A stretch of 64,000 bases of DNA from positions 10,046,001 through 10,110,000 of the forward strand of contig CM097885.1 of assembly GCA_044892525.1 (NCBI GenBank), given 5' to 3'. Below, in pieces: positions 2,581 to 38,647 of the stretch (positions are counted from its first letter, which is position 1; every line of letters starts with the position of its first letter). The notes beneath the pieces are model-generated. The model did no database searches, had not been told where the DNA came from, and worked only from the letters and a program-made list of their open reading frames with translations. Made by a program: the position numbers and the translations under genes. This stretch comes from Schmidtea polychroa. Taxonomy: Eukaryota.

Positions 2581-4961
2581 GAGTTGACCTAGATATTTTT
2601 TGGGGATGGGTGGTTCAGTGGTAATACTAGCATTCACTAACATGGTGTATTAGAATTTTTTTTGTTTTATTAAGGTTCGACGTTGGCAACCGTGTAGCCT
2701 CAGGTTGTGCTAGTTTGTTATTTTATTAAATATAGCCTAAGCAAACCTTTTTAATTTAATATTCCAACATAATGAATAAATTTCAACTAAATAATAAAAA
2801 TTCAAACTTAAACTTCCTTTTTCTCTATGTCTTACTAAAATTTCGTTTTGAATTTAAAAAATTTATTTTTTTAAATATTTAATTTTAAGTTCTGTTTATA
2901 TTTCCCCAACAGTCAATTTGGCTAACAAACAAATTGCAAAATTTTAATATTATTTTCTAGATAGCACCAATTATTGCTTATAATATTTACAAATTTATTT
3001 CTAAAATATGATTTTATAATAATTTAATATATTTGACAAGAATTAAAATGCTCGCTGTCATGGGATTATCCAAAAATTCTTGATGTGTAAATAAATTAGT
3101 AATAATAATAATTTTATTTCATTTAATTTCTCATTATGATTTAAACAAATTTTATTATTAATAAAATTATTTCATAAAAATAAAATTTAGTGCGTTTTAC
3201 TATATTAAGAATTAATAAGAACAAAATTACTAACCTACTTTCCAGATTTTTTAAATTAATATTTTTTGCAAAATTATTTTAATATTGATAAGTTATATAG
3301 TATGTGCAAAAAATTAGAACTGTTAAATATACTTATCCGCACGTGGAAATTACAGTAACTAGTGGATTAAATTAATTGTAATTTTTTTGTGTTCGGACAT
3401 AATTTATGAATTATTTAACAAAGTGCTGACATCTTTCAAATTAAAAAATAGTTGAATTGCCCATTTTTTAAAAATTTTAACATTTGCTTTTCTGACAATA
3501 AAAATTAAATAATTTAATGAAATCTCATTAATGTTTATTTCTGTTTTTTCATTGAGAATTTTTAAATTTTTTTTTTCAAAAATTACAATTCTTGTATTAA
3601 AATTATTTGTATTTTAAATTGTTTTTAAACATTTTCATTTTATAAAAAAACGCTAAATGCATTTTAAAATAGGAATAATTTTAGAATAATTACAAATTAG
3701 TAATTTTAATATTAACAATAATTCATTTCAATAAAACAAATGTCTATGATACTGTAAATTTATAATAATAAATTATTATTAAAATTATAATTAAAATTTC
3801 TTTATTTAACTGAGTTTCATTCTGAATCACCTCTGAATCAAAATTGAGAAATAAATTATTAACAAATCCCGAAAATCCGTATTTTTATGGAAAATTAACT
3901 TGATTGTTTAAACAAAGTTAGAATGTTAAAATTATATTTATATTGTTTTGTTTTAATTATTATTTTAATAGAAAGGTTTAGTACAGTTTTATTCATCTTT
4001 TTAATTGCAGTAACTCCGCTGAGCAATTAATGGAGAAATCTTAACAAAATAAGATAATTAATCTTGATTAATACAATTACATAATTTCAAAATGTTCATT
4101 GTAATTACTAAAAAAATTTACATGCAATTAGACATTCATTCAATTTCCCTTGCAGAATTTATTTTCATTCAAATTTATAAATTTATTAGTAATAAGTAAA
4201 TTGAAATTCTAATTATTTTGAAAAATTGAACACAAATCAGGGCCTATGATGATTTATTATTGCTTATGAATTTATTTTTGTGAAATAATGTGTGTTTAAT
4301 TGTCATTGTTAATATGGAGTAATTTGTTGAATCCAGCAGAGTCTCCTTTAAAAACTGTAGCGAACAACTGTGATGAGTGTGTATTATATGGTGTGCATGC
4401 GTGTGTGTATTTAATGAACAAAAACAATTCAACTGAAACAAGATTTTTAAATAACAACTTTTATTTATTATACCACAATGTTACTAACCAAAAGTTTTTC
4501 TTACAAGGTTCACTAAAGAAAGGAATAATAATAATATATGAATAATATAGAAATAATGAAATAATAATATACAAAGTAATGGAATCTCTTCTTTTAAGAT
4601 AGGTTTAATTACAATTGTTTAATGAAATTATTTCCATTCTTCATTTACCATAAACTATTTTCTCGTATTAGATTTGTAAAATAATAATTATTATGATAAG
4701 AATAAAAAAATAATAACAATAAAATAATGATAAAAATAAAAATAGCGTAAATCACTGACATGTTTTGAAAGAAAATACATCTATATACATATATAGATGA
4801 TATATTAGATTATATATCCAGTCTGATTTTCTGTAGTTTTTCCTGGACATGTCGTTTCCATTGGTTTTTTCCTGGGATTTTATTTATGATTTTGTAATTA
4901 AAATTTGACATTATTTTAATGATTTAATATTAAATTGAACTACTTTTATGAAATGAAAAAT

Positions 4962-13010: not shown

Positions 13011-14040
<1,030 letters not shown>

Positions 14041-14043
14041 TTT

Positions 14044-14061
14044 TTGTGAGCCCGACGTGAT
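14044..14061 (+). promoter_or_regulatory. Primer-binding site, tRNA-Trp
   Basis: TTGTGAGCCCGACGTGAT matches 16/18 to TGGTGACCCCGACGTGAT, the complement of the metazoan tRNA-Trp 3' end; 3 nt after the LTR. Confidence 0.8.
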
Positions 14062-14175
14062 ATAATTTACGGGGGGAATAAGAATTTTATTTATAAACGA
14101 CAAATATCTTTTTAAATCATTGAGTTAAGAAATAGAGTCATAAATTTTCGACCAGGTAATAGAAACCAACAGATA

Positions 14176-16317
14176 ATGGCAGAACTAAATAATTTGCAAA
14201 ATCTAAATGAGAATAATTTACAAAATAATGTGCCAGTAGCTCAACCACCAGCGGTAGATTTTATGAGATACCCAACAATTCCGATTAAACCATTTAGTGG
14301 AAACCCAGGGGAGTTTCCAGAATTTATGTCCGAATATTTTCAGTTAGCCAGAGCATTAGGACTTCCGGAACCGGTAATGATTTTGAGATTACCTTTATAT
14401 TTAAAAGGGATGGCGCGGGAAATATATAACGATTTTATAATAGCCGAGCATCCAGTTGAATGGAATGTATTACGATTAGCGTTACAAAACAGAATATTAC
14501 CGGGGGATGCAACTAGAGTGTTGAGACAACAGTTTTATAACAGGCGACAAAATTCGGGTGAGCATGTTGGGGAATTTTCATATCAAATAATGATGTTGGC
14601 AGAGAGAGCATTTGGCAATAGGGCAGCCTGGAATGATGCAAATGGAGCATTAGTAAAAGATCAGTTTTGGTCAGGGTTATCGTCAGCAATGAGAAATGCA
14701 CTCAGTTTACACATAGGAGATAATTTAGAGGAATTAACGCGCAAAGCGTGTTTAATTGAAAGTAGCATTGAGAAGTCAAATAATTTTGCAATTAGTAGCA
14801 ATAAGTCAGACATTGAGTGTTTTAATTGTCATAAAAAGGGACACATGTCAAAAGATTGTAAAAGTAGGAATAATTCTCCAGGGGACAAATTGTGTACCAA
14901 GTGTGGGAGAAATAATCATGTGGCATCAAACTGTAGAATTTCGGACCTAAATTGTGAGAAATGCAAGCGCAAGGGACATGTAGCGTCAGTTTGTAAAGCT
15001 AGTTTTGGGGGGAATAATTCAAATAATAGCAATAATAGAAATAGAAGCCCCGATAGGAATTTTCGTGGTAATAATAATAATAATAATTTTCAGAGTAGAA
15101 ATAATAATTTTAATAATAATATTAAAAGGGATGAAGTAAATTCGGGGGGTAAAATTAAATGTCATAAGTGTGGAAAATTTGGTCATATTATGCGTTCATG
15201 TCCACAGAATCAGTTATCTAATAACAATGATAGTGGCAACAATGGTAATAATCGATCGAAGCAGACAACGTTTGCAGTGAATTCAGACCACAAATTAACG
15301 TATTTGCAGCAGCTTGAATTAGAAATTCAAGAAGAGAGAAACAGGTTAGCAAGGCTAACAACAAATGAAACTGATGAGTACGATGAAAGTGAAGGTGTTT
15401 ATATGACGTCAGCCAGAAAAAGTCGAAATAAAAATAATTATGTAGAACTTGAAGTGTTGATGCTTCAAGAGAGTCCAAGGGAGGACAAAGAGGAAAAGAC
15501 TATGGTCATGGAACCAGAGGTCTGTGAAGGTTTACAGGTTTCAACCAGGAAAAATCTAGTGGCTGTGGCCATGGAGCCAGAAGCCAACAGAGAAATAGAA
15601 GGTTTACTGGTTTTACCAGTTAAAAATCGTAATGCTATGGACATGGATCCAGTAGCTAATGAAATAGTTCCAACAGAAGATTTGGAAAAAAGATGGGCTT
15701 CGGTCATTGAGCCGGAAGTTCTTATAGCCACATCATCCATGCGAGGTGAGTGTGGTAGTGAACCAACAAAGGTTAGAGAAGCATCGAAAGAGGAAAGAAA
15801 TCCCATCGATGATTGTAGAAAAGTATTATTACGCAAGAGCGTATGGCAAAGAGAAATGAGACAGAAATTAGAAAATATTCGTTTAAACCCCGTTAATGAG
15901 AATGAGGTTGACAAAGTAATGGATATCATATTAGAGTTAGACAGAAATGAGAAATATTATCCAGAATTGAGAGAAATTCTGAGAAATATTGGCCTAAATT
16001 GGAAACAAAGAGAGAATCTGGAAGATTCTACAATTTTTGTATCTTTCCCAAAGGGTTGTTTTCGTAGATATACAATTAACCCAAGTGAAAGGGTAGAAGC
16101 ATTGGCAAAGAGAGTTTCTGTGGTAAAACCTCAATTGAGATGCAAACTATATTTATTGGGAGAAAGGTTATTAGAGGGAGAAACCCTGTTAGATAGTGGT
16201 ATACTACCAGGGAAAAATATGGTGATAAAAGCAAAGTTTCACAAGGAAACTGTTACAGTAGTGGACTTGGATAATGTCCTTACAATAAGCGAGATTGAAA
16301 TTGATCAATTAAATTAA
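14176..16317 (+). CDS. gag: Gag (capsid, four CCHC knuckles) with C-terminal ubiquitin-like domain; first part of the polyprotein
   Basis: IKPFSG, YLKGMA and RRQNSGEHVGEF capsid motifs; CFNCHKKGHMSKDC, CTKCGRNNHVASNC, CEKCKRKGHVASVC, CHKCGKFGHIMRSC; TIFVSFPKG...LYLLGERLLEGETLLDSGI aligns with ubiquitin. Confidence 0.92.
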   Translation: MAELNNLQNLNENNLQNNVPVAQPPAVDFMRYPTIPIKPFSGNPGEFPEFMSEYFQLARALGLPEPVMILRLPLYLKGMAREIYNDFIIAEHPVEWNVLRLALQNRILPGDATRVLRQQFYNRRQNSGEHVGEFSYQIMMLAERAFGNRAAWNDANGALVKDQFWSGLSSAMRNALSLHIGDNLEELTRKACLIESSIEKSNNFAISSNKSDIECFNCHKKGHMSKDCKSRNNSPGDKLCTKCGRNNHVASNCRISDLNCEKCKRKGHVASVCKASFGGNNSNNSNNRNRSPDRNFRGNNNNNNFQSRNNNFNNNIKRDEVNSGGKIKCHKCGKFGHIMRSCPQNQLSNNNDSGNNGNNRSKQTTFAVNSDHKLTYLQQLELEIQEERNRLARLTTNETDEYDESEGVYMTSARKSRNKNNYVELEVLMLQESPREDKEEKTMVMEPEVCEGLQVSTRKNLVAVAMEPEANREIEGLLVLPVKNRNAMDMDPVANEIVPTEDLEKRWASVIEPEVLIATSSMRGECGSEPTKVREASKEERNPIDDCRKVLLRKSVWQREMRQKLENIRLNPVNENEVDKVMDIILELDRNEKYYPELREILRNIGLNWKQRENLEDSTIFVSFPKGCFRRYTINPSERVEALAKRVSVVKPQLRCKLYLLGERLLEGETLLDSGILPGKNMVIKAKFHKETVTVVDLDNVLTISEIEIDQLN

Positions 16318-16902
16318 ATATCAGCCGTACCACATAGATTGGGAATCGAGCTGATGAAAAACCCAAGAGATGGGGAGGCCATTAAGATGATAATGGATTG
16401 GATACTGGAGTTGCGAATCCCAGTAGATACTCTTAGAGAGATAATGCCATTGGTGGTGCCTTTAGTAAAAGAGACATCACAATTTCAGACACAAGCGAAG
16501 ATGCTGTTGATTAAAAATGGACATGCTATCAGACAATCGGAAGGTAGACAAGGTCCAGTGATGTTAGATATCAGGATACCCAGGAGAGGACACCTGATAC
16601 AACAATTCTCATGTTATCATAGAGTAAAGAAACTGAGAAAAAGGATATCAGAAATAGTAAAAGAATCATTCCTAATAATGATACATGGTTGTCAGGTGGA
16701 TGACGACGAATTTCTAGTAGATGTGGGATGTTTTCCCCAAGAGGAAACAATAGTAATGATATTGTTTATAGAGTTTCCAAAGGATCAGTGGGCAACTTTG
16801 AGATTGCCGGATAATGCAGAAATTGAGGAGGAGACAGTTCCTCTCGAGCAGAAACAAGTAGATGATGATACTCATCTAGAGCCAGCAAAGACAAATAGAT
16901 AA
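16318..16902 (+). pseudogene. Polyprotein continuation with second, weaker ubiquitin-like domain
   Basis: Same frame as gag after one TAA; RVKKLRKRISE...LIMIHGCQVDDDEFLVDVGC has beta-grasp spacing. Confidence 0.55.
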
Positions 16903-16940
16903 ATAGATATTTAAAGGAACTCGACAACACAGAGGATGAG

Positions 16941-17720
16941 TTGATCGAGATATTTCCACCAGAAGAAGATAAACTCATACAACTAAACCAGAATGAGACA
17001 AACATTGGAGCAAGAACCTCGCAATTATTGGAGCCACCAAGGGATAGGGTGAGCCCGAAGTTGGTCGAAAATAGGAGAAAGAAGGAGAGGAGAGGGAGAC
17101 CGAGAAAGAGTCAAATGAACCCGCCTCTAAGAGAACTCCTAAGGCCAGTAACTATGCAAAATGTTACTAGACAGGCATTAGCAGGAATAGCTAGCCAAAT
17201 AGATAAAAGCGTGGGAGACGCCAGTAGTAAAACAGAAACATGGAGGAAATTAAATCAGATATTACGATTGATTAAGCCTGAATGGCAAATCAAGAAAGAT
17301 AAAGATATAAACGTTGAGAAAATCACTGAAAAGATAAAGAAAACAATGGGAAAGATCCCAGGAAATACCACGGAACAAGAAATGTTCGAAGTGGCAGAAC
17401 AATTCCTAAATGAAGGAATGACGAAAGGGAAAATGATAACGATTTTAGCCTTAATGTTTAAAAATGCCTTAATGATACTTAAGGATGATCAGTCAGGAAT
17501 TCAAGCAGCCTTAGATAGGTTGACTAATATTATAGAAGTGAATTTCGGAACATGGATGACCGAACACAAGTTTTGGGAGATAAAAGAGACAAAAGGAAAA
17601 TACGAGTTAAATGAGGAAATACTAACGGAAAACATTTCGAGTATTCCACGGGGAACAGGTGGATTTACCAGTTGGATGATGATGTTGTTAGTAATGATGG
17701 GAATATTGAGACAGACAAAT
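16941..17720 (+). CDS. Bcl-2-like domain plus hydrophobic signal/anchor segment
   Basis: FEVAEQFLNEGMTKGKMITILAL (BH1-like), FGTWMTEHKFWE (BH2-like), then WMMMLLVMMGIL. Confidence 0.65.
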
Positions 17721-19783
17721 TCTTTAACGGCATATGATTGTAGTGAACCAATACTATCACGAATATACTCATTAGTAGACACAGTGGAATGCAAGGAAGC
17801 ATATCCCGACAAAGTGGCTAAAATGGAAGATGTAGAATTTTACGTTTATCAACAAACAGAATTTTACCGAACAAGGATAAGGGAATGTCGAATACAGAGA
17901 GCGACATTTGAATACTATTGTGGATCAAATAGTTATTCAGCATTTTTAGGAGCCAAACTTATTCCTGTACCTCTGATAATCCCACCAGAGGATTGTATAA
18001 ATGCTTTTCGATCAAAGACGGTCAAAATAGATGATGAAGTGACAATTACTTCTGAAGAGGGAAAGAAATTGGGTATAACTATTACCCGGGGAGGACCAAT
18101 AGCAGATGATGGTTCTTGTCAGGGTAGAAAGAAACTACGAGGTTCTAATGTAGTAAGGTATGTGGTAACAGTTGAGGATTACACAGTAGAGCTGATTGAG
18201 TACGAAGGAACTTTTGAAGTTTCTACGGGAAAAATGATGTCGCATCCAGAATGTAATGCGAAGTTTGGTTATTGTAAAACCAGTTTAGCAGTATTGACTT
18301 ATCAATCAATGAGAGATTTTTGTGATTTGGGATACTTGAAAAAGGTAGTCTTTTCAAGGCTTGATGGGAAAAGTTTTACGTCTCAAGACACGAAACAGAG
18401 TGGTTGGGGAGACAAGATGGCTCACAAAACGAAAAAAGAGGAAGTACCAGAGAAAATCACTGCGGTAGTGTTAGTCTCAAAGGATCCAACAGATGCAATA
18501 CGATTAGTCAGAAAGAAACAGACCACAAAGTGTGGAGTATTAACATTTGAAAAAATTATAAAGGAATATATTTAGCACACAAATATGTTCCAGCAGCTGA
18601 ATCGTTACATTTATCAGATATCAAGATAACCAAGTATATCAATAACAAGATTGACTTTCTGTATCATGACTTACAGAAGCAACTGTTAGATGTATACCAG
18701 GAAGTGATCCTGAATGATTGTCGTTTGAACAGAGAAATAATACGTAACAGGTTAGCAATATCGATAGCTAATCCAGATTTAGTAATGCCAATGTTAACAG
18801 AGGAAGGAACATTTGGTAGAATATTGGGAGAAGCAATCTACAGTTATCAATGTAAAGCAGTAGAGGTAGAAGTCACCAGATATGATCAATGTACTGTAGA
18901 GCTTCCGGTAAGATATAAAGGCAAACTGAGATTTATGATGCCGGTATCGCATCAGTTATTAAAGGAGGATACATCACCGTTAAAAACAGTTTGCAATCCA
19001 GCAATGTCACCATTGTACAAGATTAACAATATATGGATTTCATTACCAGATAGAAAACCACCTTCGAAACCAGTAGAAGTACTCCAAGCTACAAAACTGG
19101 AAACTAAAATGGAGTTTAGACCATTGAATGAAATGTCAAAAGGTGGAGTATACACTCCAGAGGAGATTGAAGAAGCTCGGAGAGCAATTGTATTTCCCCA
19201 AATCAGAGATAGAGGAGTAACAGAGATAATAACTAGAATCTATCAGTCATATGATGGTAAACCAGATTACAATTTATTATTTGGGCCTGAACACTACAAA
19301 CAAGCTGCATCAAATGTGATACGGAAAATCTGGGGTAGATTTACAAGTTTTGGAATATTTGTAGCAGGATGTTCAGGGATATACGCAATAATAATGATAC
19401 TGAAAATAATCATATCACAATTATTTTCCACGTATAGTATCTTCAAGATCGGAGGGTGGTCTTGGAAGTTGCTATTAGGAATGTGTCCAGTTTGTGCAGA
19501 CTTTGCAGTATTTCATCATCATAATAAAGAAATTAAACGAATGAAGAGGCAAAATCTAACAAAACATCAATTGATAAAGTATGAATATAGTCATCGAGAC
19601 GATGACAATTCTGACGAGGGAGGTAACCTAGAGGGCTACGAGACCTCAGATAACACATCAACAAATCCAGACAACAAAAAACCGAAATTTAAAAATTTTG
19701 AAAATAGAACTTATCAACAGCACCCTGTTAAAGATAAAAATCGGAAAGGACTAAAATGGCCGGTGAAATATTTATCACCTTAA
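17721..19783 (+). pseudogene. env: Envelope glycoprotein, chuvirus G-like (class III/gB-like), frameshifted at ~18550
   Basis: LTAYDC after the signal peptide, YYCG, conserved cysteines, YINNKIDFLY, CRLNRE, GEAIYSYQC, CTVELPV and a C-terminal TM; adding one base in the A-run at ~18550 joins ORFs 16941 and 18704. Confidence 0.85.
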
Positions 19784-20578
19784 ACAACCAGGAAAAAGAT
19801 AATATCGGAACAAGTAGAGGAGGAAATGATAAAGCGGCTTGATTTTAGAACAAGTATAGATATAGCAACACCCTTGCCATATCCGAAATATAATATGAAA
19901 TTTGAAACAATGCCAGCAATTGGCACATCAGCCATAGAAATGATACCAAGATACCCATTTAGTACGCTGGAGCGTCTAAAGGAAAATTATCAAGAAGAGA
20001 TAAAATCGGAAGATGATAAAGACAGCGAGAATCAACAGAAATTTAGAGATAATATCCGAGGAATTTCAACAATATTTATGGTGAATATTGGGAAAAAGAC
20101 TAATAAGCCTACAATTAAATTAAAGGTAAACAGGCATACAGTACATGCCAACATGGACTCAGGATCAGATTTAACACTGATCGAAGCGAATCTATTAAAT
20201 GAAAAAGAACTACAAGCAATAGTACCAACATTAACGGGAGCAACTGGAGCAAACGGACAGCCGATCAATGTTATCGGAACATTAGAGTGTGAATTACGGC
20301 TGTGCGACCAGAAATTTAGACACGATATCAAAGTCACAAGAAAATGTATGGCTGAATGTATCGTGGGAATGGATATATTGAAAAAATTAAAAGATATTGT
20401 CTTCGATTGTGCAACAGGTGAATTAGTAAAAATGACGGGTAGAAAACTAAAAACCTACAGTGTGGATGTAGTGTTTCTAGATAGAACGCTAACCATACCA
20501 CCGAGGACCGAGACAGTTTGTTTTGTAGCCACACACCAAGAGGTGGAGGGGGATGTTATTTTCGAACCTAGTGAGTAG
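19784..20578 (+). CDS. Retropepsin aspartic protease region
   Basis: ANMDSGSDLTLI, GANG flap, CIVGMDIL; in frame with env across one TAA. Confidence 0.92.
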   Translation, partial: TTRKKIISEQVEEEMIKRLDFRTSIDIATPLPYPKYNMKFETMPAIGTSAIEMIPRYPFSTLERLKENYQEEIKSEDDKDSENQQKFRDNIRGISTIFMVNIGKKTNKPTIKLKVNRHTVHANMDSGSDLTLIEANLLNEKELQAIVPTLTGATGANGQPINVIGTLECELRLCDQKFRHDIKVTRKCMAECIVGMDILKKLKDIVFDCATGELVKMTGRKLKTYSVDVVFLDRTLTIPPRTETVCFVATHQEVEGDVIFEPSE

Positions 20579-20581
20579 TTC

Positions 20582-23101
20582 GTGAATAGATATAAAACGC
20601 CCATGGTGCAAAACTTGGCAACAGTACGGGGAGGAAGAATTCCCATTCGATTAACAAATCTAGCGAACAAGTCTTTGAAACTGTACCCAGAAACGAGAGT
20701 GGGTAAAATAATGCAACTTGCAAATGTACCCAAAGAAAGTGAGACGATACTATCAGTGCAAGAGGATGAACGAGATCCAGATATTGAATATTATGACGCA
20801 CCGAGCTGCGATAGTAAAGCATTAACTAGAAAAGAGAACATCAGAGTTAATCAGTTGTTACGTAAATATGACCAAGTTTTTGCAAAACACGAATATGATT
20901 TAGGGCAAGTTAATATCTTAGAGCATGAAATTAAATTAACAGAAAATAAACCGATAAAAATACGCCCGTATAGAATACCTCAAAGTATACAAGGGTCCGT
21001 GGATAAACAAATTAAATTAATGCAAAAATATAATATAATCAGACCCAGTAAATCTCCATATTCCTCACCTTTGGTGGTTGTAGCTAAAAGAGATGGCTCA
21101 GTTAGATTATGTAATGACTATAGGAAATTAAATGAACAGACAGTAAGTGACAATCACCCGCTACCTTTGCTAGATTACATTTATGATAAAATGAAAAATT
21201 CAAAGTTGTTTACTGTGATGGATGCACAGAAAGGTTTTTATCAAATAAAGATGAGCGAAGACTCAATTCCTATGACAGGATTTTCTACAAGTAGTGATCA
21301 TTTCGAATACTTAGTAATGCCGTTTGGATTAAAAGGAGCCCCTCCAACTTTTCAGAGGGCAATGAATATCATGTTGATGGATGCACATCACGCAATGGTA
21401 TATATAGACGATATTATCATCTTCTCGGAAGATTTAGATAAACATTTGGAACATCTTGAAGACATTTTCAAACGATTAATCATGGCAAACTTAAAAGTTA
21501 AACCAAGCAAATGTAAATGGGCAGAATCGGAAGTGATTTACGTGGGGCATGTAATATCACACGATTGCGTAAGACCAGATCCGGCTAACACGGATAAAGT
21601 AAAGAATTTCCCACAACCAGTGAATGTGAAACAAATCAAAGGATTTTTAGGGTTGACGGGATACTATCGGAAATTTATACGAAATTTTTCAGCAATTGCT
21701 TTTCCTCTAACTACCTTAGAAAAGAAAGGTATAACATTTTTATGGGGAGAAGACCAGCAACAGGCATTTGATAAGTTAAAAGATGCACTATGCAAACCAC
21801 CAATTCTACGATTTCCAGATTTTAAAAGACAATTCATGGTGATGACCGATGCATGCACAAGAGGAATAGGTGCAGTTTTGGGACAGAAAGACGAAATTGG
21901 CGATGAATACGCAGTAGCATATGCAAGTCGTGGATTGAAGCCACACGAAAAAAGTTATGCTGTAATAGAATTGGAAGCATTAGCATTAGTATTTGCAGTG
22001 GAAAATTTTAGTCATTACCTATGGGGCAGAAAGGTAATTTTCTTTACGGATCATAGACCACTACAATGGTTATTGAAACACAGAGATGAAGCGTCAAAAT
22101 TAGTAAGATGGGCATTGAGATTGCAGCCCTATAATATTGAAATAGTATACCGAAAAGGTAAAGCCAATGGTAACGCTGAATTGTTTGATCCAGAAGCTAG
22201 TCAACACCCGGATATAGAATACCGGAGAACGGATAGATCATTCAGATTTTATTTGACAAATCCGCAATGGCACAGATATGATTTATATCTGACAACTCCA
22301 GAAAGAGGAGTATCTTTCCATCTAAATCTATGGGATCGAGTGAAGATAATAGATGGATTATTACCAAATACCAGTTATCTCCTAGAAATTAAAACATATA
22401 TGGCAGATCCAAACGTGTTCGCAAATGGAGGAGATTGTGATGACAAAGCAGCATGGATCGTGAGAACAGCGGTATTTAAGGAAAAAGTGGAAATTACGTA
22501 TCAGAACCAGACAGTTAAATTCCATCATTTATATTGGAGGAAAAGTAACACATTTTCTGAACATGATTGGAGAATAAATAATCGAATAGCGCTCCTATAC
22601 ATATTAGAAAATAATAAAACAGTAAAGAAGTTAGTACTCAACCAAGCTTATCAACGGAGGAGCTGGACAGTTAAACAAAATATCGAAACGATAGCCAATA
22701 TAACGTATATGGAATTCACAGAGGAAACAGGCTGGTATACGGTGTATCATGAGATGATAAAATTAACACCTCCAGCAATAAAGGAACTAGCTAACCGACG
22801 ATGGGAGGCTAGATTAGTAAATATCTCGGGTTGTAGAGGAATAAATAAAATGGATTGGACGAATTTTCAAAGGGTAGCGAGTGAAAAACGTTCACGTGAA
22901 AATAAAATAATTAAAAATTGTTCATGTCAGACTGAACTTAAGGGAAATTCAGGAGCTAAAATGCCAAATTGGCTAATCATAACTATTGTAGGGGGAGTAA
23001 TAATTATGATATTGAGTTTAATAATAGCTACCTTGTGGGTGTTTAAAATAATAATGAGGGACATAAGGTATTGGGAAAATATTTACGAGACCGAGGTTTA
23101 G
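20582..23101 (+). CDS. pol: Reverse transcriptase and RNase H fused to an FN3-like ectodomain, TM and cytoplasmic tail; no integrase
   Basis: RPYRIP, RLCNDYRKLN, MPFGLKGAP, YIDDII; RNase H TDAC, ELEALA, TDHRPL. After KGKANGNA the sequence switches to IDGLLPNTSYLLEI, TM WLIITIVGGVIIMILSLIIATLWVF and tail ENIYETEV. Confidence 0.93.
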   Translation: MNRYKTPMVQNLATVRGGRIPIRLTNLANKSLKLYPETRVGKIMQLANVPKESETILSVQEDERDPDIEYYDAPSCDSKALTRKENIRVNQLLRKYDQVFAKHEYDLGQVNILEHEIKLTENKPIKIRPYRIPQSIQGSVDKQIKLMQKYNIIRPSKSPYSSPLVVVAKRDGSVRLCNDYRKLNEQTVSDNHPLPLLDYIYDKMKNSKLFTVMDAQKGFYQIKMSEDSIPMTGFSTSSDHFEYLVMPFGLKGAPPTFQRAMNIMLMDAHHAMVYIDDIIIFSEDLDKHLEHLEDIFKRLIMANLKVKPSKCKWAESEVIYVGHVISHDCVRPDPANTDKVKNFPQPVNVKQIKGFLGLTGYYRKFIRNFSAIAFPLTTLEKKGITFLWGEDQQQAFDKLKDALCKPPILRFPDFKRQFMVMTDACTRGIGAVLGQKDEIGDEYAVAYASRGLKPHEKSYAVIELEALALVFAVENFSHYLWGRKVIFFTDHRPLQWLLKHRDEASKLVRWALRLQPYNIEIVYRKGKANGNAELFDPEASQHPDIEYRRTDRSFRFYLTNPQWHRYDLYLTTPERGVSFHLNLWDRVKIIDGLLPNTSYLLEIKTYMADPNVFANGGDCDDKAAWIVRTAVFKEKVEITYQNQTVKFHHLYWRKSNTFSEHDWRINNRIALLYILENNKTVKKLVLNQAYQRRSWTVKQNIETIANITYMEFTEETGWYTVYHEMIKLTPPAIKELANRRWEARLVNISGCRGINKMDWTNFQRVASEKRSRENKIIKNCSCQTELKGNSGAKMPNWLIITIVGGVIIMILSLIIATLWVFKIIMRDIRYWENIYETEV

Positions 23102-23302
23102 GGGGAAAAAGTCTCACCAACAAACTAGGCAATGTAAATATATAGTTATCTATTTAATAAACCTTATTTATAGTAATGTATTAAAAGTGTGGGCTCAACT
23201 GAGCAAAGGTAAAATCAGACATCAGCGTATGTCGACCTTGTGCACCCTGGGAGGGTCTATCACGAAAGTGATAAAAGCTATTAATTAATTTTATTTTCAG
23301 CA

Positions 23303-25378
23303 ATGGATCAGAACAGAATGACAAAAGCCCCAATCAAAGCAAACAGACGACTTCAAATGGCAAAATACAATTCCCAATGTCCAACAGATATGGAGGTATA
23401 CAGTACCTTCAAGGAGGAATACGTATACCGGTTCATAGGAACCACGGTAGAAACGAAGATGAATCATTTCACTTCGAATTACTGGTATTATCCCAGGAGA
23501 GTGGATATCCCAAACGATTATAAATTCCCAGGTGGACCTCACCGACAAATGATGATAACGGTTGTAAGCAACCAAGGGAGAATAAAGTTAGGAGATTTAT
23601 GCAGAGAATATGGATCATGTCCAAGGAGAGAGAACATTTGAATCCACGCTATAAATAGGCCAATCACGGTGTTCATGGCAGGTATGGACCTACCCGTGGA
23701 ATTGGATAAATATAGTACGTTGGAAATGTACCATTCAGATGGACGAGAAAAGAACATTCAAGTTCAAGCAGCAGCAATAAATTCAATAATAGCGGTGGAA
23801 ATATCGGAGTTTAAAAAACAACACCCTATTGTGAGTCGAAATGAGCCGACATGGATTAATAATGTCAACGAAGCCGACATACAACAGTGCAAGTCGTTCG
23901 TAAGAAAATACTTAACAAAAATCGAGGAGGATGAGGCCACAGTTTTTGTATCCGCAGGATTTGCAAAATCCAGGATGGAGTTGAAAGAAACACTAATCCA
24001 AATTGCGATAGTGGATATGAGAGGCAATAATTTATTGAGTGCGGTAGTGACTCCCAAGGACCCAGTTAAACACTACCAGACGCACCAATATAAACTGAAG
24101 GAACCAGAAATCAGAGGAAATTTGGATGAAGACGATTGTCACCACCTTATTAGGAAAATTTGTGATAAGAAAATTATAGTTGGAATTTTAATAAAAGATT
24201 TAGTTTCGGTAGCCAATCTACCAGTGCAACGATTGTTAGGAATCAGAGACTTATCAGCAAATAAGTTGTTAGAATCCAGAGGAGTCCCCAAGATTCATGG
24301 GCATTATAAATTGGGATTCCTAACAAAGACGTTTTTGCGTGCGGTTCCCGGAGAACCAAGGAATTTAGTTGTAACAAACGAGGCACTTGCGATCCGAGCG
24401 GTTTACCTACAAATCCGAAATGAATGGGTAGACCATATCAGTATGCCTCAGGAGGATTACATGTCAGCAACCCAGGCGGTAGCGGTTGACTTAGAAATAT
24501 TGCAGAAACGAAGACTACCCGAACAACCTTCTACATCAGAACAGCCCCAGGCAAAGAAAAGGGGTAGGTCACCAGCAGATTTACCACCACCTCCAACAGT
24601 GTCGATAGGAGAAGAAGAGTATGAAACATGCGTAAGTGAAGCTGAATTAACAAGTCCACTCAAATTATCTACTAGTGTCGCAAAGAAATCACAGAAAAGG
24701 TCAGAAGTTAAAAGTGCAAAGGAAACCCCAGAGGTAGGCACAGTCAAAAAGATATTAAAAAAAATGATACCTGGCAAACGCGATAAATCGAAATTGAAAT
24801 TGAAAAAGGTTGCCAAACAACCAGGGGAGAAGATAGAAATACCATCCAGCAAGGATGAAGTAAACAAAGCAGAGCCCAGGAAATTATTTACGGAACCCGA
24901 TGATGACTTAATGGAAATTGAATTCCAACCTCCAATCAAGGAATTGCAAGAGAAAATTAAAATCAAATCAGAACCCGAAGTACGAAAGAAAATGTTAAAG
25001 CTAACAAAAGAAAATGTCATAAAAAAGCCAGTATCAGTAGACGTAGATGGATTTGATCCTATGTGGTATAAACGTCCTGACAGGAATTGGAAGCCTAGAG
25101 CCAAAGAATATAATGGCCAACCTATCACGAGGATGGCGATAAATAACAATCAACAATATGATGAGTATGACGTAGATGCGATACCTTATGTGATATCTAC
25201 AGTCATACTAACATGCGCCCTGGATGATAAAGCCCTGGCCGTGAGTTTCGAGCCAGAGGTATTGAAGAAACAGAAAGCGAAAATGATTCGCCAATATGCA
25301 ATCGCAAATAGTTACAGTACCACGGAGGTACATCTATACAAAGTTCCCGAACCAGATCCCGACGATCTGGATGTCTGA
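23303..25378 (+). pseudogene. 3' accessory ORF: REX4/ISG20-like DEDDh exonuclease fold with degenerate catalytic residues, plus charged tail; one in-frame TGA at 23639
   Basis: LIQIAIVDMRG...VVTPKDPVKHYQT...KKIIVG...IRDLS...NEALAIRAVY follows the REX4 pattern; ORFs 23303 and 23669 share a frame; splice acceptor TTTTATTTTCAG just before the ATG. Confidence 0.65.
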
Positions 25379-25602
25379 CGAAGGAAATTGCCAGAAGTCG
25401 TTCAATTGAGTGTAAATATGAGCTTATCTATATGTGTTTCATGTGACATTTCTTGGACATTACTTGGTGATTCTGTCATTTATTATTTTGGGAATATGTG
25501 TTTATATTTTGTTTTATGATTTATGGTAATTTTTATGTAATACTGTTGTCTGCAGTTCTTGAAAAATAATTTTATATCTTGTTTTCGGGACGAAAATCTT
25601 TT

Positions 25603-25614
25603 AGGGGGTAAGAC
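25603..25614 (+). promoter_or_regulatory. Polypurine tract
   Basis: AGGGGGTAAGAC immediately before the 3' LTR. Confidence 0.75.
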
Positions 25615-25615
25615 T

Positions 25616-26531
25616 TGTTAGGGATAGGCCCTGGCCTTAAATTATTTTTCTAAAAATAGAAGTAGGAGAAGTGAAAATAATTGTATAGCACAAAGTACTG
25701 TAGTGGGAAAATTTGTTTTTTTGGAAACAGCTGTCGTGGAATCGGGGATTTGATCGAGACCTGACTAAGCTTTGGAGGTAGTTTTGTGTAGAAAAATAAA
25801 GAGAAATAACTACACAGCTGTAGTTGAAGAAGAGATTAGAATTTTATTAAGGAGAGCAGCTGTTATAATTACAGGAAAAGATTTTATTGTGGAGGTAAAT
25901 TTAATCGTTTTTTTTCATTTGGGAAGAATTACTTGAATACAGCTGTGCTCAAAAAACATATATATAGAAAGAATAGTGAAAGAAAGGAGCAGAAGAAATT
26001 AGACAGATTTGAAAAATCTAGAGAAGAATTATTTATGAACAGAAACGAGAATATTTAAAAGTAAAATTTAATTTAATTTAATTTAATTAAATATAAGGGT
26101 GGTTGAGGATAAATTCGTATCCTGTGAACTAGTAAAATTTAGCGAACACAAAGTATAGATCTTCTACTTTAGTGTTCCCTGGGAGCCCCAAAATCATTCC
26201 CTCTTGCTTGCCCAACTCTTTTAGTCATATTGCGATTGTTGTGCTACATAGGAGCCAATAATTTCTTGCAGACTGTTGACAACAGTAGGGATCAAAGAAT
26301 CCGTTTTCTTGTACTCTTTGTACATATATTATAAAGTTCATTTGTAAATTATAAAATACATTTTTATAAAAAGAGAAAGGAGTTTTGTTTTTTCTTATTC
26401 AGTGATTTAAACTTAAACGCGCAACCACATTAAATATAACTTATTTATATTTATTTTTATTTATTTATCTTAATTGAATTATTGGAGTCATTTGTGTTAA
26501 GATCTGTAGTCCCCGTTTTTCGATCTTAACA
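25616..26531 (+). repeat. 3' LTR (916 bp)
   Basis: Direct repeat of 13124-14040. Confidence 0.98.
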
Positions 26532-26789
26532 ATAATAATAATATTCAGTATATAGATAATTATGTTTTTGATATATTACATCTATAAAATGCTAAAACTA
26601 CTAAATTAAAAAATAAATGGAAGTACAGAAATAAATTTCATTTAATAACTTTATTCAATTTAGTGAGAAAGTTTGTTTAAATGAATGATGAAATTGATTT
26701 AATTTCTGACTAAAGTAAAGCCCGATCTGTCAAGTATGTAGACATTATAATTAAGAGAAAGAATAAAAGTTTTAAAACGAAAACAATTC

Positions 26790-35412: not shown

Positions 35413-35598
35413 TTAATAATAATAATAATAAAAACATACCCATTTCTTCATAAAAAAGTTTGTTTTCATAAAATTTATTTCATAAATCATATAATTTGTT
35501 TTCATAAAAACTGGTTTCATAAAAAAAAAAAATAAAAATTAATCATAAAAAAATTTCATTATAAAAAAATTTAAATCATAAAAAAATAATAATTACCT
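34546..35598 (+). repeat. Polinton left TIR with internal 29-bp and 26-bp tandem repeats
   Basis: Reverse complement of 47973-49016; 29-bp unit AGGTCATTCTATTTTTAGTAACTAGGTCA and 26-bp unit ATTTAAACAAATATTTAAATAAATAC. Confidence 0.96.
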
Positions 35599-37795
35599 AA
35601 AGACGAATTTACAAACTGACAAGAATCTATAAATTTCACAGTCAGGGAATCAATATGCACAAAAAGAGATAAAAAATTTTCACTTGTCACCGGTATACAA
35701 GAAATATGCCAGGACTTATATTTAGCCAAGCCAAATTTGAGGATATGATGGAGATCATATCCTCTCAAATTATGAAAGACTACAGGTAGTGTGTGGTATA
35801 TTTTCCTGGAAAGATTACAAGTGTTGCAAGCAGCACCAAGGAATTGACCGGTAAAGTGATCATGATCCCTGACTGGTTTAACTAATAATTTTTTACACAA
35901 ATGACAGTTTGTGCTGTTATTAAAATTAATTTGGTCATTTTCTGTGAATATCATTTTCTTATTTTTATTTTTATAATAATAGGGAGTTACAATCTTTTTA
36001 GCGATATCATTAATTTCTTTTAAAAATTCGTCTATACAAGAAAGGCCTATGAATGATTTATAAAATTTTGCGCCTGTATTATTATTTATACATAAAAGTC
36101 CAGCCGAAATGGGTAAATGTTTCTGATAATATTTAGAATCTTTAGGAAGGATTGCCTCAAAATCGGCATAAATAACAAAAGGAGGAGTAATCATTTTACT
36201 ATAGTCTGTGAATTCTAATAATGGATCTTTTGGTAGTGTGTACATTGTGGTTCCTAATTGGTTTCGTTCACAAAGACCTTGATGTTTAATAAAACTATCT
36301 TCAAATCTGAATCCATTCAGACATCTAGGACACCACTTACAGTAAATACGAACAGAACTTATTGATGAATTTCGGCAATTAAGAAAGATGTTTAAATCAG
36401 ATATAGCGACGTAATGGTAGGTTTTCCGATTCTGTAATAATAACAAATTTAGACAAGTACCTCCTACTATTTTACTGCGATAAATTATATCTATAAAAGG
36501 ATGTTTCATGATGGGACCCGAAATTAACCCAGTTTCGTCATAACTTAAAACATTAATTGAATAACCTGGGTTTTGTCGTTCAAATTTTGAGATATTTGAT
36601 AATTTCATTGGCATATCTGCCGGGTTATATATCAGATCTGAAAGGTTATAAGAACTAGGCAGATGACGCAATTCATCAGGAGTACTATCATATTTTATAA
36701 GAGCCAAAACCGAGTAAAGGAAACAAAATTCGTCATCATTATTTACATTTATTATACATTTTTTCCTGATTAATGTTTTCGGGGTTTCAATATATTTACG
36801 ACCACTCAACCTACTAATCTTTGAATATTTTGTCACAATAAAACTAATGTATTCTATTTTGTTGATGGTCCAATTACTTCCCTTTTCATTTATTTTACTA
36901 ATTTTTTCATTTAAAAGAGAGATACCATCATCAATAAATGTGTCGCTCCATACACGAGCAGAGTTTGAGATTATGAAAGACTGAAATTCATCATTTTTCT
37001 CAAACTCTACTTTAATACAAAATTGAATTTTTACTGATTTCATTTTATTTACAATTTCTAACAATTTTTCTATGAGAACGTCAGGAACAGAAAGAATTTT
37101 ACAATTCAAGGAAGATATATCCAACTTAACTATTACATGGGAACTATTCAGGTCGGAAACTACGTCGACTATACCACTACCTACTTGGGGTACAACATCA
37201 CTATTTTCAAATTCACTATTTTCAAATTCACTATTTTCAAATTCACTATTTATAACTTCACTATTTATAACTTCACTATTTACAACTTCACTATTTACAA
37301 CTTCATTACTTACAACATCATCGTCGTCTTCACTAATGACTATTATTTCTTTCATCTTTTTTGTGGGAATTTCTGTGGGAATTTCTAAATGTCTTTTATT
37401 ACCTATTATTCCTATTAATCTATTGACTGTTTCCATTAATTGTCGATTTTGTATCAACATGGCATTAATCATACTTTTGTTGGTGGTCCTATTATTGATT
37501 TTTGTTGATGTTTCCATTAATTGTCGATTTTGTAAGTTTTCGGTGTTCCTATTATTAGTTGATGATATATATTTTTGATACGCAATTTTGAAAACTGATT
37601 TTTTAGAAGGCATATATTGGGTTAAATGATTACGATGTTTATCATAAAATTCGGTATATGTCGATGTTTCAAGAGTTTGGCATGTAGGACATAACAAGTA
37701 TGTTACACTTTTATATTCATGACCATAATATTTTTCCATAATATCGTCACAGTCATGATGTGTAGCACTGTTACAAAAGGTTGGATATTTATAAC
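35599..37795 (-). pseudogene. Protein-primed family B DNA polymerase, N-terminal and exonuclease part only; extra short upstream exons likely from ATG ~38413
   Basis: GSNW, CFLYSV, YADFE (Exo I), endonuclease VII-like CHLC...DHDHFTG...CNTCN insert, FHNLRGYD (Exo II), KFIDS; ends at AG|GTAATT at the TIR edge with no SLYP, NSxYG or YxDTDS motif. Confidence 0.92.
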
Positions 37796-38647
37796 CTATA
37801 AAATAAGTAAAATAGTATTATTATCAAAATTATTATTATTATTATTATCAAAATTATTATTATTTATTATTACTATATAATCTGAGTTTATACGACAAAA
37901 TATTCTGTCCCTCCCTTGCTCATAAGTGTATTATATTTAAATTTATTTTAATTAAATAAAAACATATTCATTTTCTTTATAAAAAATAATTTCATTATTT
38001 GTTTCATAACAAAATTGACTTCATACATTTTCTTTATAACAAAATTGACTTCATATTAATTTAAAAAATCATAATAATTTAAAGTAAATTAATTTAAAAA
38101 TCATAATAATTTAAAGCATATTAATTTTAAAATTTTAAAAAACCTACATTTAGGTTTCTTGCACGCGAGATTGTGTACAGCATTATTTACTAAAAAATCA
38201 TAATAATAATAATAATTTAAAAATTAAATTTACCATAATTTCCGGAAACATTATTTTCAATTCCATTACTTGCTGAAAAATTATAAGTTCCCGAAACATT
38301 ATTTTCATTAATGTAGACTAAAATATAAATAAAAATAAAAACATATTAAAAAAAAAATTACCCATACGATTTCTTCGAATCATTTCCTTGATTTCATTTG
38401 AAATATTTTGCATTTTGAATAAATGAAAAAGAATTACAAAAACATAGATTATATATGTAACGTTTATCCAATCAAAATGCAGATAGGATAGAAAAAATTA
38501 ACGCACACATATTCATGTCTTTGTTTAAAAAAGAATGAGTCATCGATGACTCACATAGTAACAAATAATGTCTTTGTTACTCACATAAAGACATGCAATA
38601 CAAGTGCATGAAATTTGTTGATATGAATAATAAAATTAATTAATAAT

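What the first reader, a model, noticed from the sequence alone, without database searches (positions are those of the whole stretch)
14176..23101. Enveloped Gypsy element with env between gag and protease in a single polyprotein
Seen: the six ORF pieces are separated only by three single in-frame stops (16315, 19781, 20576), an 8-bp tandem duplication AAATAGAT (~16893-16908) and a 1-bp loss in an A-run (~18550). Repairing these gives one ~2,970-codon frame: Gag-Ubl-Ubl-Bcl2-Env-PR-RT-RH-FN3-TM. Known: retroviruses and errantiviruses place env 3' of pol on a spliced mRNA. Inference: the internal signal peptide and TM would thread Env through the ER and return Pol to the cytosol, an RNA-virus-style polyprotein strategy. 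Giant multi-domain planarian Gypsy elements (Burro) exist, so family-level novelty needs checking.
Basis: partly seen in the sequence, partly recalled or inferred. Interest (0 to 1): 0.9.

Follow-up and report, generated by a model that had tools for sequence, protein, structure and literature searches.

The report
Dead copy of env-bearing planarian Gypsy
This is a decayed, integrase-less copy of a planarian retrovirus-like element whose intact relatives encode capsid, envelope and replication enzymes as one giant protein, an arrangement already published for planarian Burro elements.

Summary
Window 13124-26531 is an LTR element whose first ORF is cut into six pieces by three stops and two frame changes. 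All five breaks are private: 10 of 10 other genomic copies are open at each.

The predicted single frame exists in nature. One close copy has a 3,513-codon frame. Ten copies of a sister family have 3,516 codons and four of a third family have 3,366-3,369. A 3,181-aa protein about 40% identical has the same order. The order is Gag, Ubl, Bcl-2-like, class III Env, PR, RT, RH, IN, then a glycosylated membrane module. Every segment is under purifying selection.

The headline is not new. Arkhipova and Yushenova 2019 (PMC6431247) reported env in frame between BCL2 and PR in planarian Burro elements. Chary and Hayashi 2026 (PMC13524379) catalogued GAG-ENV-POL elements in Schmidtea.

Possibly undescribed are the membrane module after integrase, the Bcl-2 anchor preceding Env, and ORF2. 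FN3 is unverified.

The parts
13124..14040 (+). 5' LTR (917 bp, TG...CA)
   Evidence: aligns to 25616-26531 with 910 matches, 6 mismatches and 1 gap. The flanks are (AAT)n, and ATAA on both sides fits the family's 4-bp target duplication (7 of 7 other copies).
14041..14175 (+). Leader between the LTR and the first ATG (primer-binding region not tested)
   Evidence: sequence only.
14176..16314 (+). ORF1 piece 1: Gag-like N-terminus, four CCHC knuckles (14818-15201), an acidic linker and a first Ubl-like stretch (16027-16239)
   Evidence: zf-CCHC 1.3e-13. PF00240 ubiquitin only below threshold (E 0.002-0.005). Coordinates.
16315..16317 (+). Private in-frame stop 1
   Evidence: 10 of 10 other copies have a sense codon here.
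16552..16776 (+). Second Ubl domain (beta-grasp)
   Evidence: pLDDT 72-98 for model residues about 170-335; ubiquitin/NEDD8/ISG15/SUMO, TM(target) 0.73-0.84. Z 11-12, rmsd 1.5-1.9 A over about 72 residues.
16893..16908 (+). Private frame-changing lesion (two adjacent AAATAGAT)
   Evidence: 10 of 10 other copies hold a different stretch here, 13 bases longer; contigs of 2 of the 4 runs laid (X1, X5) show the extra letters; the other two had no or almost no depth there.
17232..17585 (+). Bcl-2-like region (BH1 to BH2)
   Evidence: a profile of 6 family sequences against PDB sequences. The first 54 of the 60 rows shown are Bcl-xL, E 0.0013-0.025, aligned over BH1-BH2. The AF2 model of this part has low confidence.
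17664..17708 (+). Hydrophobic segment, placed like a Bcl-2 tail anchor and like the Env signal
   Evidence: It is followed by a conserved L/I/M-T-A/V-Y/F-D-C motif in 6 of 6 relatives.
17724..19348 (+). Env ectodomain, class III / mononegavirus-type fusion glycoprotein, cut by the frame change at about 18549-18554
   Evidence: PF24664 2e-19 and 1e-57; 9.6e-76 in the intact copy; 10 of 10 copies have one more base at the A-run.
19349..19432 (+). Env transmembrane anchor (a further short hydrophobic stretch lies at 19469-19513)
19781..19783 (+). Private in-frame stop 2
   Evidence: 10 of 10 other copies are open.
20102..20392 (+). Aspartic protease
   Evidence: RVP 5.4e-08.
20576..20578 (+). Private in-frame stop 3
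   Evidence: 10 of 10 other copies are open.
21083..22132 (+). Reverse transcriptase and RNase H
   Evidence: RVT_1 2.5e-31, RT_RNaseH 3.2e-34.
22177..22179 (+). Junction of the in-frame loss of integrase plus the following hydrophobic segment (about 1.54 kb present in copies A-I)
   Evidence: Integrase_H2C2 8.7e-19 and rve 2e-07 in the intact copy; only the window spans the junction among 40 scored matches.
22178..23101 (+). Post-integrase membrane module: ectodomain 22178-22969, TM 22970-23053, 15-residue tail ending ETEV, then the stop
   Evidence: Conserved in three families, dN/dS 0.20, sequon-rich. The fold is unknown.
23303..25378 (+). ORF2 (about 690 codons) with a premature stop at 23639-23641
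   Evidence: Conserved in three families. No Pfam or PDB match. The Atlas RNase_T lead of 0.90 is unconfirmed.
25599..25615 (+). Polypurine-like tract before the 3' LTR
   Evidence: The same tract is seen in the sister copy.
25616..26531 (+). 3' LTR

Best explanation
SHOWN: window 13124-26531 is a dead copy of a Ty3/Gypsy-type endogenous retrovirus family of about 15 kb in a planarian genome. It carries three nonsense codons, two frame changes, an in-frame loss of integrase and a stop in ORF2. In the family's intact state one reading frame of about 3,500 codons encodes the following, in order:
- Gag with four CCHC knuckles
- two ubiquitin-like domains
- a Bcl-2-like domain ending in a hydrophobic segment
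- a class III (mononegavirus-type) fusion glycoprotein with its anchor
- protease, RT, RNase H and integrase
- a second hydrophobic segment, a sequon-rich ectodomain of about 260 residues, a transmembrane anchor and a 15-residue tail
A separate ORF2 of about 680 codons follows.

INFERRED mechanism: the full-length RNA is translated as one polyprotein that crosses the ER membrane four times. Gag to Bcl-2 stays in the cytosol. The Bcl-2-type anchor acts as an internal signal, so Env enters the lumen, and signal peptidase probably cuts before the conserved LTAYDC motif. The Env anchor returns the chain to the cytosol for PR-RT-RH-IN. The hydrophobic segment after integrase sends the last ectodomain into the lumen, and the final anchor ends the chain in the cytosol. 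The element's protease would release the cytosolic parts.

This is the architecture already published for planarian Burro elements, here in a compact form.
For: - Structure of the copy.
- Private breaks: 10 of 10 other copies are open at each of the five sites.
- Integrase loss: copies A-I carry about 1.54 kb more at 22177-22179. The junction is spanned only by the window, 1 of 40 scored matches from 124 candidates.
- Natural single frames: copy E has 3,513 codons. In one search, 16 of 79 scored Env matches lie in open frames of 3,000 codons or more with no stop in the match (3,513 once, 3,516 ten times, 3,366, 3,368, 3,369 twice, 3,090). The third family copy has 3,366 codons and is 52% identical over its whole length.
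- Outside this genome: P0011, 3,181 aa, has CCHC, PF24664, RVP, RVT_1, RNase H, H2C2 and rve in one protein and is 42% identical over 2,154 columns. P0024, 2,296 aa, has CCHC, PF24664 and proteases.
- Selection: dN/dS between two families is 0.02-0.47 in all 13 segments. Values are Env 0.04, Bcl-2-like 0.11, Ubl 0.20 and post-IN ectodomain 0.20.
- Domains: Ubl fold, Bcl-xL profile hits, Pfam.
- Topology: the four main hydrophobic segments that the model uses recur in E, S, T and P0011. LT(A/V)(Y/F)DC follows the first segment in 6 of 6 sequences. The Env ectodomain has 13-14 Cys and the last ectodomain has 3-8 sequons.
- Transposition hallmarks: matching 4-bp target duplications in 7 of 7 other copies, and LTR identities of 96.5-100%.
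- Literature: PMC6431247 section 7 (read whole); PMC13524379 (outline, section 14, passages, supplement rows).
Against: - No RNA or protein evidence was obtained, so translation as one chain, signal cleavage and processing are all inferred.
- No signal-peptide or topology predictor was available. The segments come from a Kyte-Doolittle scan only.
- A fifth hydrophobic stretch 12 residues after the Env anchor (E 1790-1804, conserved in S and T) would upset the four-pass parity if it spans the membrane.
- The Env ectodomain has 0, 0, 1 and 0 N-glycosylation sequons in four lineages of about 540 aa each, which is odd for a lumenal viral glycoprotein.
- The Bcl-2 assignment rests on E values near 1e-3, and that part of the fold has low confidence.
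- ORF2 shows that not everything is made from the one frame, so some subgenomic or reinitiation route probably exists.
- Equimolar Gag, Env and Pol is unusual for retroviruses.
Confidence: 0.8

Rival explanations
1. The frame is continuous, but Env (and perhaps Gag alone, or ORF2) is mainly expressed from spliced or subgenomic RNAs, as in retroviruses and Drosophila gypsy. On this view the giant polyprotein is a minor or non-productive product.
For: ORF2 lies downstream of the ORF1 stop, and its relation to ORF1 differs between families. It is separated by many stops in the E type, overlaps in another frame in the sister family, and follows directly in frame in the third family. So some second expression route is needed. 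Equimolar Gag and Pol is uncommon among retroviruses (established knowledge).
Against: The frame is kept open across the Gag/Env and Env/PR borders in three families and in a relative about 40% identical. The linkers are under purifying selection: dN/dS is 0.09-0.47 in the three stretches between Gag and Env and 0.11 in the Env tail and linker. Env has no start codon context of its own, because the hydrophobic signal is the end of the Bcl-2-like domain. No GT..AG joint was seen, but only contigs could be laid, which cannot decide.
Confidence: 0.2
2. The env-like and post-IN membrane modules no longer serve cell-to-cell infection. They act inside the cell, for example by tethering assembly to ER membranes or interfering with apoptosis and host defence. 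The family would then spread only as an intracellular retrotransposon.
For: The Env ectodomain has almost no sequons. The Ubl and Bcl-2-like host-interaction domains sit in the same protein. There is no evidence of particles or infection from any call.
Against: Env has among the lowest dN/dS of the structural parts (0.04). It keeps 13-14 cysteines, the signal and the anchor in lineages down to about 40% identity. PF24664 matches at 1e-75 over positions 246-627 of 653.
Confidence: 0.2
3. The stops and frame changes are programmed (readthrough or -1 frameshifting), so the pieces are separate regulated products.
For: Both frame changes are of -1 type by position arithmetic.
Against: 10 of 10 other copies lack every one of the five breaks. 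The A-run is not a slippery heptamer in the incoming frame. Natural copies read straight through.
Confidence: 0.01
4. The env block is a secondary insertion, or an assembly chimera, within an ordinary Gypsy element.
For: None found.
Against: The same order and frame occur in all 10 fetched copies, two further families and two proteins from other sources. No internal repeats or insertion ends flank env. dS is heterogeneous along the element (0.07-1.46). That speaks for recombination between families, not for a foreign insert in this copy.
Confidence: 0.01

Closest known systems
Burro elements (Burro1 = GYPSM1) of Schmidtea mediterranea, as annotated by Arkhipova and Yushenova 2019 (PMC6431247, section 7 read whole)
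   Same: A planarian Gypsy-like LTR element with a typical Gag and CCHC knuckles. A Ubi2/SUMO-like motif and then a BCL2-like motif lie upstream of an env region that hits mononegavirus fusion glycoproteins. The env is in frame between gag and PR-RT-RH-IN in one polyprotein, and there are accessory ORFs.
   Different: Burro has an internal region of up to 25 kb and a 4,873-aa ORF1 with MATH_TRAF_C, BIR, ankyrin, Smc, AIR1 and dUTPase motifs. Here ORF1 is about 3,500 codons and Pfam finds none of those. That section does not mention a membrane module after integrase or discuss topology. No Burro sequence was compared here.
Smed_errantivirus_1 to 6, GAG-ENV-POL errantiviruses with HSV/gB-type env (Chary and Hayashi 2026, PMC13524379; passages, section 14 and supplement rows seen)
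   Same: Same host genus, a gag-env-pol order, and a class III env flanked by a signal or TM and a TM. The element length is about 15 kb and there are multiple near-identical copies. The env ectodomain printed for Smed_errantivirus_4 looks closest, at roughly two thirds identity by eye (not computed). That matches the third family found here at 63-64%.
   Different: The paper treats GAG, ENV and POL as three ORFs. 'Polyprotein', 'fused' and 'frameshift' have 0 occurrences in its main text, so it does not discuss a single frame, the Ubl and Bcl-2 domains, a post-IN module or ORF2. The window's own family matches none of the six printed ectodomains exactly.
Non-canonical nematode ERVs with an RNA-virus glycoprotein between gag and pol (Sacco et al. 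2022, known here only as cited in PMC13524379; not held, not read)
   Same: A metavirus backbone with a captured glycoprotein placed upstream of pol.
   Different: A different phylum. Whether the frames are fused there was not seen.
Drosophila gypsy and other insect errantiviruses
   Same: A Ty3/Gypsy backbone plus a viral fusogen, thought to allow infection of germline from somatic cells (PMC13524379 abstract and discussion passages).
   Different: In those elements env lies 3' of pol and is made from a spliced mRNA (established knowledge). Their env is F-type in Drosophila (stated in the paper), and they have no Ubl or Bcl-2 domains.
Membrane-threaded polyproteins of enveloped positive-strand RNA viruses such as flaviviruses (recalled knowledge, no call)
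   Same: Works alike: internal signals and stop-transfer anchors alternate lumenal glycoproteins with cytosolic enzymes in one chain. The chain is cut by signal peptidase and a viral protease.
   Different: There is no homology, and the resemblance is inferred only from hydrophobic segments.

Membership tests
Ty3/Gypsy (Metaviridae) LTR retroelement | Paired LTRs with TG...CA ends and a short target-site duplication | tested here: met
   917/916-bp LTRs, 910 matches, 6 mismatches and 1 gap. ATAA lies on both flanks, though these sit in (AAT)n and so are weak on their own. Matching 4-bp duplications occur in 7 of 7 other copies.
Ty3/Gypsy (Metaviridae) LTR retroelement | Pol order PR-RT-RH-IN | tested here: met
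   Met for the family in intact copy E (RVP, RVT_1, RT_RNaseH, Integrase_H2C2, rve, in that order). The window copy itself lacks IN.
Ty3/Gypsy (Metaviridae) LTR retroelement | RT phylogeny placing it within Gypsy clades | not tested
   No named reference RT set was at hand. PMC13524379 places Smed errantiviruses in Ty3/gypsy (section 14).
Ty3/Gypsy (Metaviridae) LTR retroelement | tRNA primer-binding site next to the 5' LTR | not tested
   The sequence after the LTR was read but not compared with tRNAs. The supplement of PMC13524379 lists tRNA type 'none' for Smed_errantivirus_1-6.
Burro-like / GAG-ENV-POL planarian errantivirus | Env in frame between gag and protease | tested here: met
   natural frames of 3,366-3,516 codons contain CCHC, PF24664 and RVP in that order.
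Burro-like / GAG-ENV-POL planarian errantivirus | Ubiquitin/SUMO-like and BCL2-like motifs upstream of env | tested here: met
   Ubl fold with Z 11-12. Bcl-xL fills the first 54 of 60 rows shown at E 0.0013-0.025, which is moderate strength.
Burro sensu stricto | Giant size (internal region up to 25 kb) with MATH_TRAF_C, BIR, ankyrin and dUTPase motifs | tested here: not met
   The element is about 15 kb. None of these Pfam families appears at E up to 1 in copy E.
Class III viral fusion glycoprotein (mononegavirus G / gB type) | Sequence membership in PF24664 over most of the model | tested here: met
   9.6e-76, best stretch on model positions 246-627 of 653, with a second stretch on the N-terminal part (model positions 6-208).
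Class III viral fusion glycoprotein (mononegavirus G / gB type) | Trimeric five-domain fold with fusion loops | not tested
Bcl-2 family | Helical bundle with BH1 and BH2 motifs and a C-terminal hydrophobic anchor | tested here: inconclusive
   The profile aligns BH1 to BH2 of Bcl-xL at E about 1e-3, and a hydrophobic segment lies about 30 residues after it. The AF2 model of this part has pLDDT 34-59. Pfam and HMMER over 1.84 billion proteins gave no cellular Bcl-2 hit.
   Atlas feature scores of 0.85-0.89 point to FN3 single-pass proteins (lead only). There is no Pfam hit, the AF2 pLDDT is 34.7, and the profile against PDB hits nothing but a TM helix.
Programmed recoding site | Break shared by functional copies, with a slippery heptamer or readthrough context | tested here: not met
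   0 of 10 other copies share any break. The A-run is out of register for X XXY YYZ.

The most novel reading that the evidence does not exclude
The lineage may encode two lumenal proteins in one chain. One is a nearly sequon-free class III fusogen whose signal is the tail anchor of a Bcl-2-like domain. The other is a fast-evolving, sequon-rich type I membrane glycoprotein placed after integrase. This second protein could be an undescribed envelope component, for example a receptor-binding or shielding partner. Signal-peptidase cleavage would at the same time create a genuine tail-anchored Gag-Ubl-Bcl-2 protein. This four-pass, RNA-virus-like polyprotein logic in a retroelement was not mentioned in the parts of the two papers that I read.
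Probability: 0.3. Interest if true: 0.6.

Novelty: new member of a known kind. Interest (0 to 1): 0.3.

Why it matters
The window copy itself is junk DNA. The family shows that a retrovirus-like element can carry its fusogen inside the gag-pol frame. It keeps that frame open and under selection in several lineages with very young copies. That makes planarians a place to test how one chain yields cytosolic capsid and enzymes together with lumenal envelope proteins.

Planarians propagate through neoblasts, which PIWI proteins guard (PMC8532177 passages). An env-bearing element expressed in differentiated cells and entering stem cells would parallel Drosophila gypsy. That link is inference.

The post-integrase membrane module and ORF2 are the parts most likely to be new.

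Tried and rejected
- RNA evidence: the look-up of sequencing runs listed no RNA holder. Read laying could use only contigs of 4 runs. All 4 runs show the extra base at the A-run, and 2 of 4 (X1, X5) show the extra letters at 16892-16896. There were no GT..AG joints, and contigs cannot settle splicing or expression.
- AF2 of the post-IN module with a 4-row alignment failed (pLDDT 34.7), so no fold search was run on it.
- A profile of the post-IN module (E, S, T) against PDB sequences matched only a TM helix at E 1.4.
- The search for homologous proteins on the module among proteins of 794-2,529 aa found none. BLASTP of the module against the tail of P0011 found no similarity.
- ORF2 had no Pfam hit at E 0.1, and only HHH_3 at 0.007. 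It had no PDB hit by phmmer or profile. The Atlas RNase_T lead of 0.90 therefore stays unconfirmed.
- Env against PDB sequences gave nothing. Env against the phage collection gave no match, and that was an uninformative choice of collection.
- HMMER of the Ubl-Bcl-2 part over 1.84 billion representatives gave 17 hits. Those scanned looked mostly like retroelement pieces (two were chimeric gene models), and none was a cellular Bcl-2.
- The first Ubl stretch was not modelled with confidence (pLDDT 28-43).
- Grohme et al. 2018 (PMC5797480) is not held, and Sacco 2022 is not held.
- Earlier findings of the scan: three look-ups, nothing.
- No tRNA gene lies in the window.
- Alignment A2 contained a stray one-codon row and was discarded for A3.
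- Identity to Smed_errantivirus_4 was judged by eye, because typing a sequence from a paper was left out.
Full report
**What is in the window**

Two direct repeats at 13124-14040 and 25616-26531 align with 910 matches, 6 mismatches and 1 gap. They begin TG and end CA. A purine-rich tract lies just before the 3' repeat. The flanks are (AAT)n, with ATAA on both sides.

Between the repeats the G+C content rises from about 0.2-0.3 to 0.36-0.38. The + strand carries seven long stop-to-stop frames. The stops at 16315, 19781 and 20576, the two adjacent AAATAGAT at 16893-16908 and the A-run near 18550 are all there. The first ATG is at 14176.

Pfam gives the following:
- four CCHC knuckles in piece 1
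- PF24664 (Monjiviricetes fusion glycoprotein) split over pieces 3 and 4
- RVP in piece 5
- RVT_1 and RT_RNaseH in piece 6
- no integrase anywhere

**Other copies**

The genome that holds the window is 781 Mb with four very large contigs. It holds many copies. I fetched ten, A to J, and compared them without building any consensus.

Copies A to I carry about 1.54 kb more between window 22177 and 22179. In copy E the extra stretch is 1,542 bases, or 514 codons. In the intact copy it encodes Integrase_H2C2 and rve, followed by a hydrophobic segment. So the window copy has an in-frame loss of integrase. Among 40 scored matches to the junction, from 124 candidates, only the window itself spans it.

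At the 16893 site they hold a different stretch that is 13 bases longer, so the lesion is more than a duplication. Contigs of four public runs all show the extra base at the A-run, and two of them (X1, X5) show the extra letters at 16892-16896. The second ORF (23303-25378) has a premature stop at 23639-23641 that copy D lacks.

The copy is therefore dead several times over, and its lesions are private. With LTRs 0.7% apart, decay after insertion is a sufficient explanation. That dating is relative only.

**The single frame is real**

Copy E has one natural open frame of 3,513 codons, or 3,492 from the first ATG. Copy E itself has only 323 bases of its 5' LTR, and its ORF2 is in two pieces.

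A search with the Env ectodomain scored 79 of 2,832 candidates. Of these, 16 lie in open frames of at least 3,000 codons with no stop in the match: 3,513 once, 3,516 ten times, 3,366, 3,368, 3,369 twice, and 3,090.

- The 3,516-codon sister family (example L029+L030) is 89.6% identical in protein to E. That example has 1,077-bp LTRs that are 100% identical.
- A third family (example L036+L037) is 52% identical over the whole length, with a 3,366-codon frame.
- Outside this genome, P0011 (3,181 aa, from a 12.1-kb contig) has CCHC, PF24664, RVP, RVT_1, RNase H, H2C2 and rve in one protein. It is 42% identical to E over 2,154 columns.
- P0024 (2,296 aa) has CCHC, PF24664 and proteases.

Between E and the sister family, dN/dS is below 0.5 in all 13 segments:

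| Segment | dN/dS |
|---|---|
| gag | 0.06 |
| linker | 0.47 |
| Ubl | 0.20 |
| Bcl-2-like | 0.11 |
| Env | 0.04 |
| PR | 0.03 |
| RT | 0.06 |
| IN | 0.02 |
| post-IN ectodomain | 0.20 |

dS ranges from 0.07 to 1.46 along the element, a sign of recombination between families. Matching 4-bp target duplications, all A/T, occur in 7 of 7 other copies with both ends captured.

**Domains**

- **Second Ubl.** It is well supported. AF2 gives pLDDT 72-98 for model residues about 170-335. Foldseek matches ubiquitin, NEDD8, ISG15 and SUMO. VIA-align gives Z 11-12 at 1.5-1.9 A over about 72 residues.
- **First Ubl.** It has only sub-threshold Pfam ubiquitin hits (E 0.002-0.005).
- **Bcl-2-like part.** It is moderately supported. 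A profile of six family sequences finds Bcl-xL in the first 54 of 60 rows shown, at E 0.0013-0.025, aligned from BH1 to BH2. The model there has low confidence, and no cellular Bcl-2 came up in Pfam or HMMER.
- **Env.** It is a clear PF24664 member (9.6e-76).
- **Module after integrase.** It is conserved in three families, with 27% identity between E and T. P0011 has an equivalent in layout but not in sequence. Its fold is unknown.

**Topology (inference)**

A Kyte-Doolittle scan finds the same alternating hydrophobic segments in E, S, T and P0011:
- one after the Bcl-2-like part
- the Env anchor
- one directly after integrase
- a strong C-terminal anchor

The first segment sits where a Bcl-2 tail anchor would. 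In 6 of 6 sequences it is followed by L/I/M-T-A/V-Y/F-D-C. That fits a signal cleaved just before the mature Env. Cleavage there would leave Gag-Ubl-Bcl-2 tail-anchored.

The Env ectodomain has 13-14 cysteines but 0, 0, 1 and 0 sequons in four lineages. The last ectodomain has 5, 4, 3 and 8 sequons in about 250 residues. I cannot explain the sequon-poor Env. A short fifth hydrophobic stretch after the Env anchor is a risk for the four-pass model.

**Comparison with print**

Arkhipova and Yushenova 2019 (PMC6431247, section 7 read whole) describe Burro elements of Schmidtea mediterranea. These have Gag with CCHC knuckles, a Ubi2/SUMO-like motif, BCL-2, and then an env region with hits to mononegavirus fusion glycoproteins between BCL2 and PR. 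[quoted passage not shown]

Chary and Hayashi 2026 (PMC13524379; outline, section 14, passages and supplement rows) report GAG-ENV-POL errantiviruses with gB-type env in Nematoda, Bryozoa and Platyhelminthes. They list six Smed_errantivirus elements of about 15 kb. The printed ectodomain of number 4 looks roughly two thirds identical to the window's, by eye only.

The family here is a compact relative, without the MATH, BIR, ankyrin or dUTPase motifs of Burro.

Neither paper, in the parts I read, mentions a membrane module after integrase, the use of the Bcl-2 anchor as the Env signal, or the membrane topology. 'Polyprotein', 'fused' and 'frameshift' have 0 occurrences in the main text of PMC13524379. 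Searches found nothing further. Grohme 2018 and Sacco 2022 were not available, and figures are not held, so this is not proof of absence.

**Verdict**

This is a new member of a known kind. Interest is modest, and lies mainly in the post-integrase module, ORF2 and the testable topology.

Noticed in passing
window 23303-25378 (+): ORF2 of the element is conserved in three families (34% identity to the third family). It has no Pfam or PDB match, and an Atlas feature score of 0.90 points to RNase_T-type exonucleases. Its position relative to ORF1 differs between families. In the third family it follows the ORF1 stop directly in the same frame (L036+L037), which might allow readthrough.
   Followed up: partly
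Env ectodomain and post-IN ectodomain of E (L017/L018), S (L029/L030), T (L036/L037) and P0011: The Env ectodomain has 0, 0, 1 and 0 N-glycosylation sequons in about 540 residues. The post-IN ectodomain has 5, 4, 3 and 8 in about 250, and the rest of the polyprotein has about 6 per 1,000. Unexplained.
   Followed up: partly
window 35574-44125 (-): A run of long ORFs on the minus strand. One has Pox_A32 / RNA_helicase-type ATPase hits (43502-44125, E about 1e-6). Another has a weak Endonuclease_7 hit (35574-37817, E 4e-4). This may be another virus-like or Maverick-like element.
   Followed up: partly
window 50590-51756 (-): A pogo/Tc5-type transposase ORF: DDE_1 1e-22 and HTH_Tnp_Tc5 5e-12.
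   Followed up: partly
G000:C3:106.49-107.20 Mb: Dozens of matches, spaced mostly about 2,881 bp apart, to the last 213 residues of the post-IN module (48% identity, each with two stops). This looks like a tandem array built from a piece of a related element.
   Followed up: no
G000:C2:100873351, 100887569, 100901787: Three sister-family copies with 3,516-codon frames lie exactly 14,218 bp apart. That is about one element minus one LTR, as in a head-to-tail array sharing LTRs.
   Followed up: no
copy J, L027+L028 (G000:C4:8022000-8035000): A copy 89% identical in DNA has a 2,818-codon open frame, although an internal deletion joins the RT region to the ORF2 region. Its LTRs are 99.9% identical.
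   Followed up: no
window 13050-13123 and 26532-26545; L029 flanks: Both the window copy and the sister copy examined sit inside (AAT)n tracts. All eight target duplications seen are made of A and T only. This may be a target preference or just the AT-rich genome.
   Followed up: no
window 13124-13466: The first 340-370 bases of the window's LTR do not align to the LTRs of copies A-I. They do match a few other loci at 93-98%, so the family has LTR (U3) variants.
   Followed up: no
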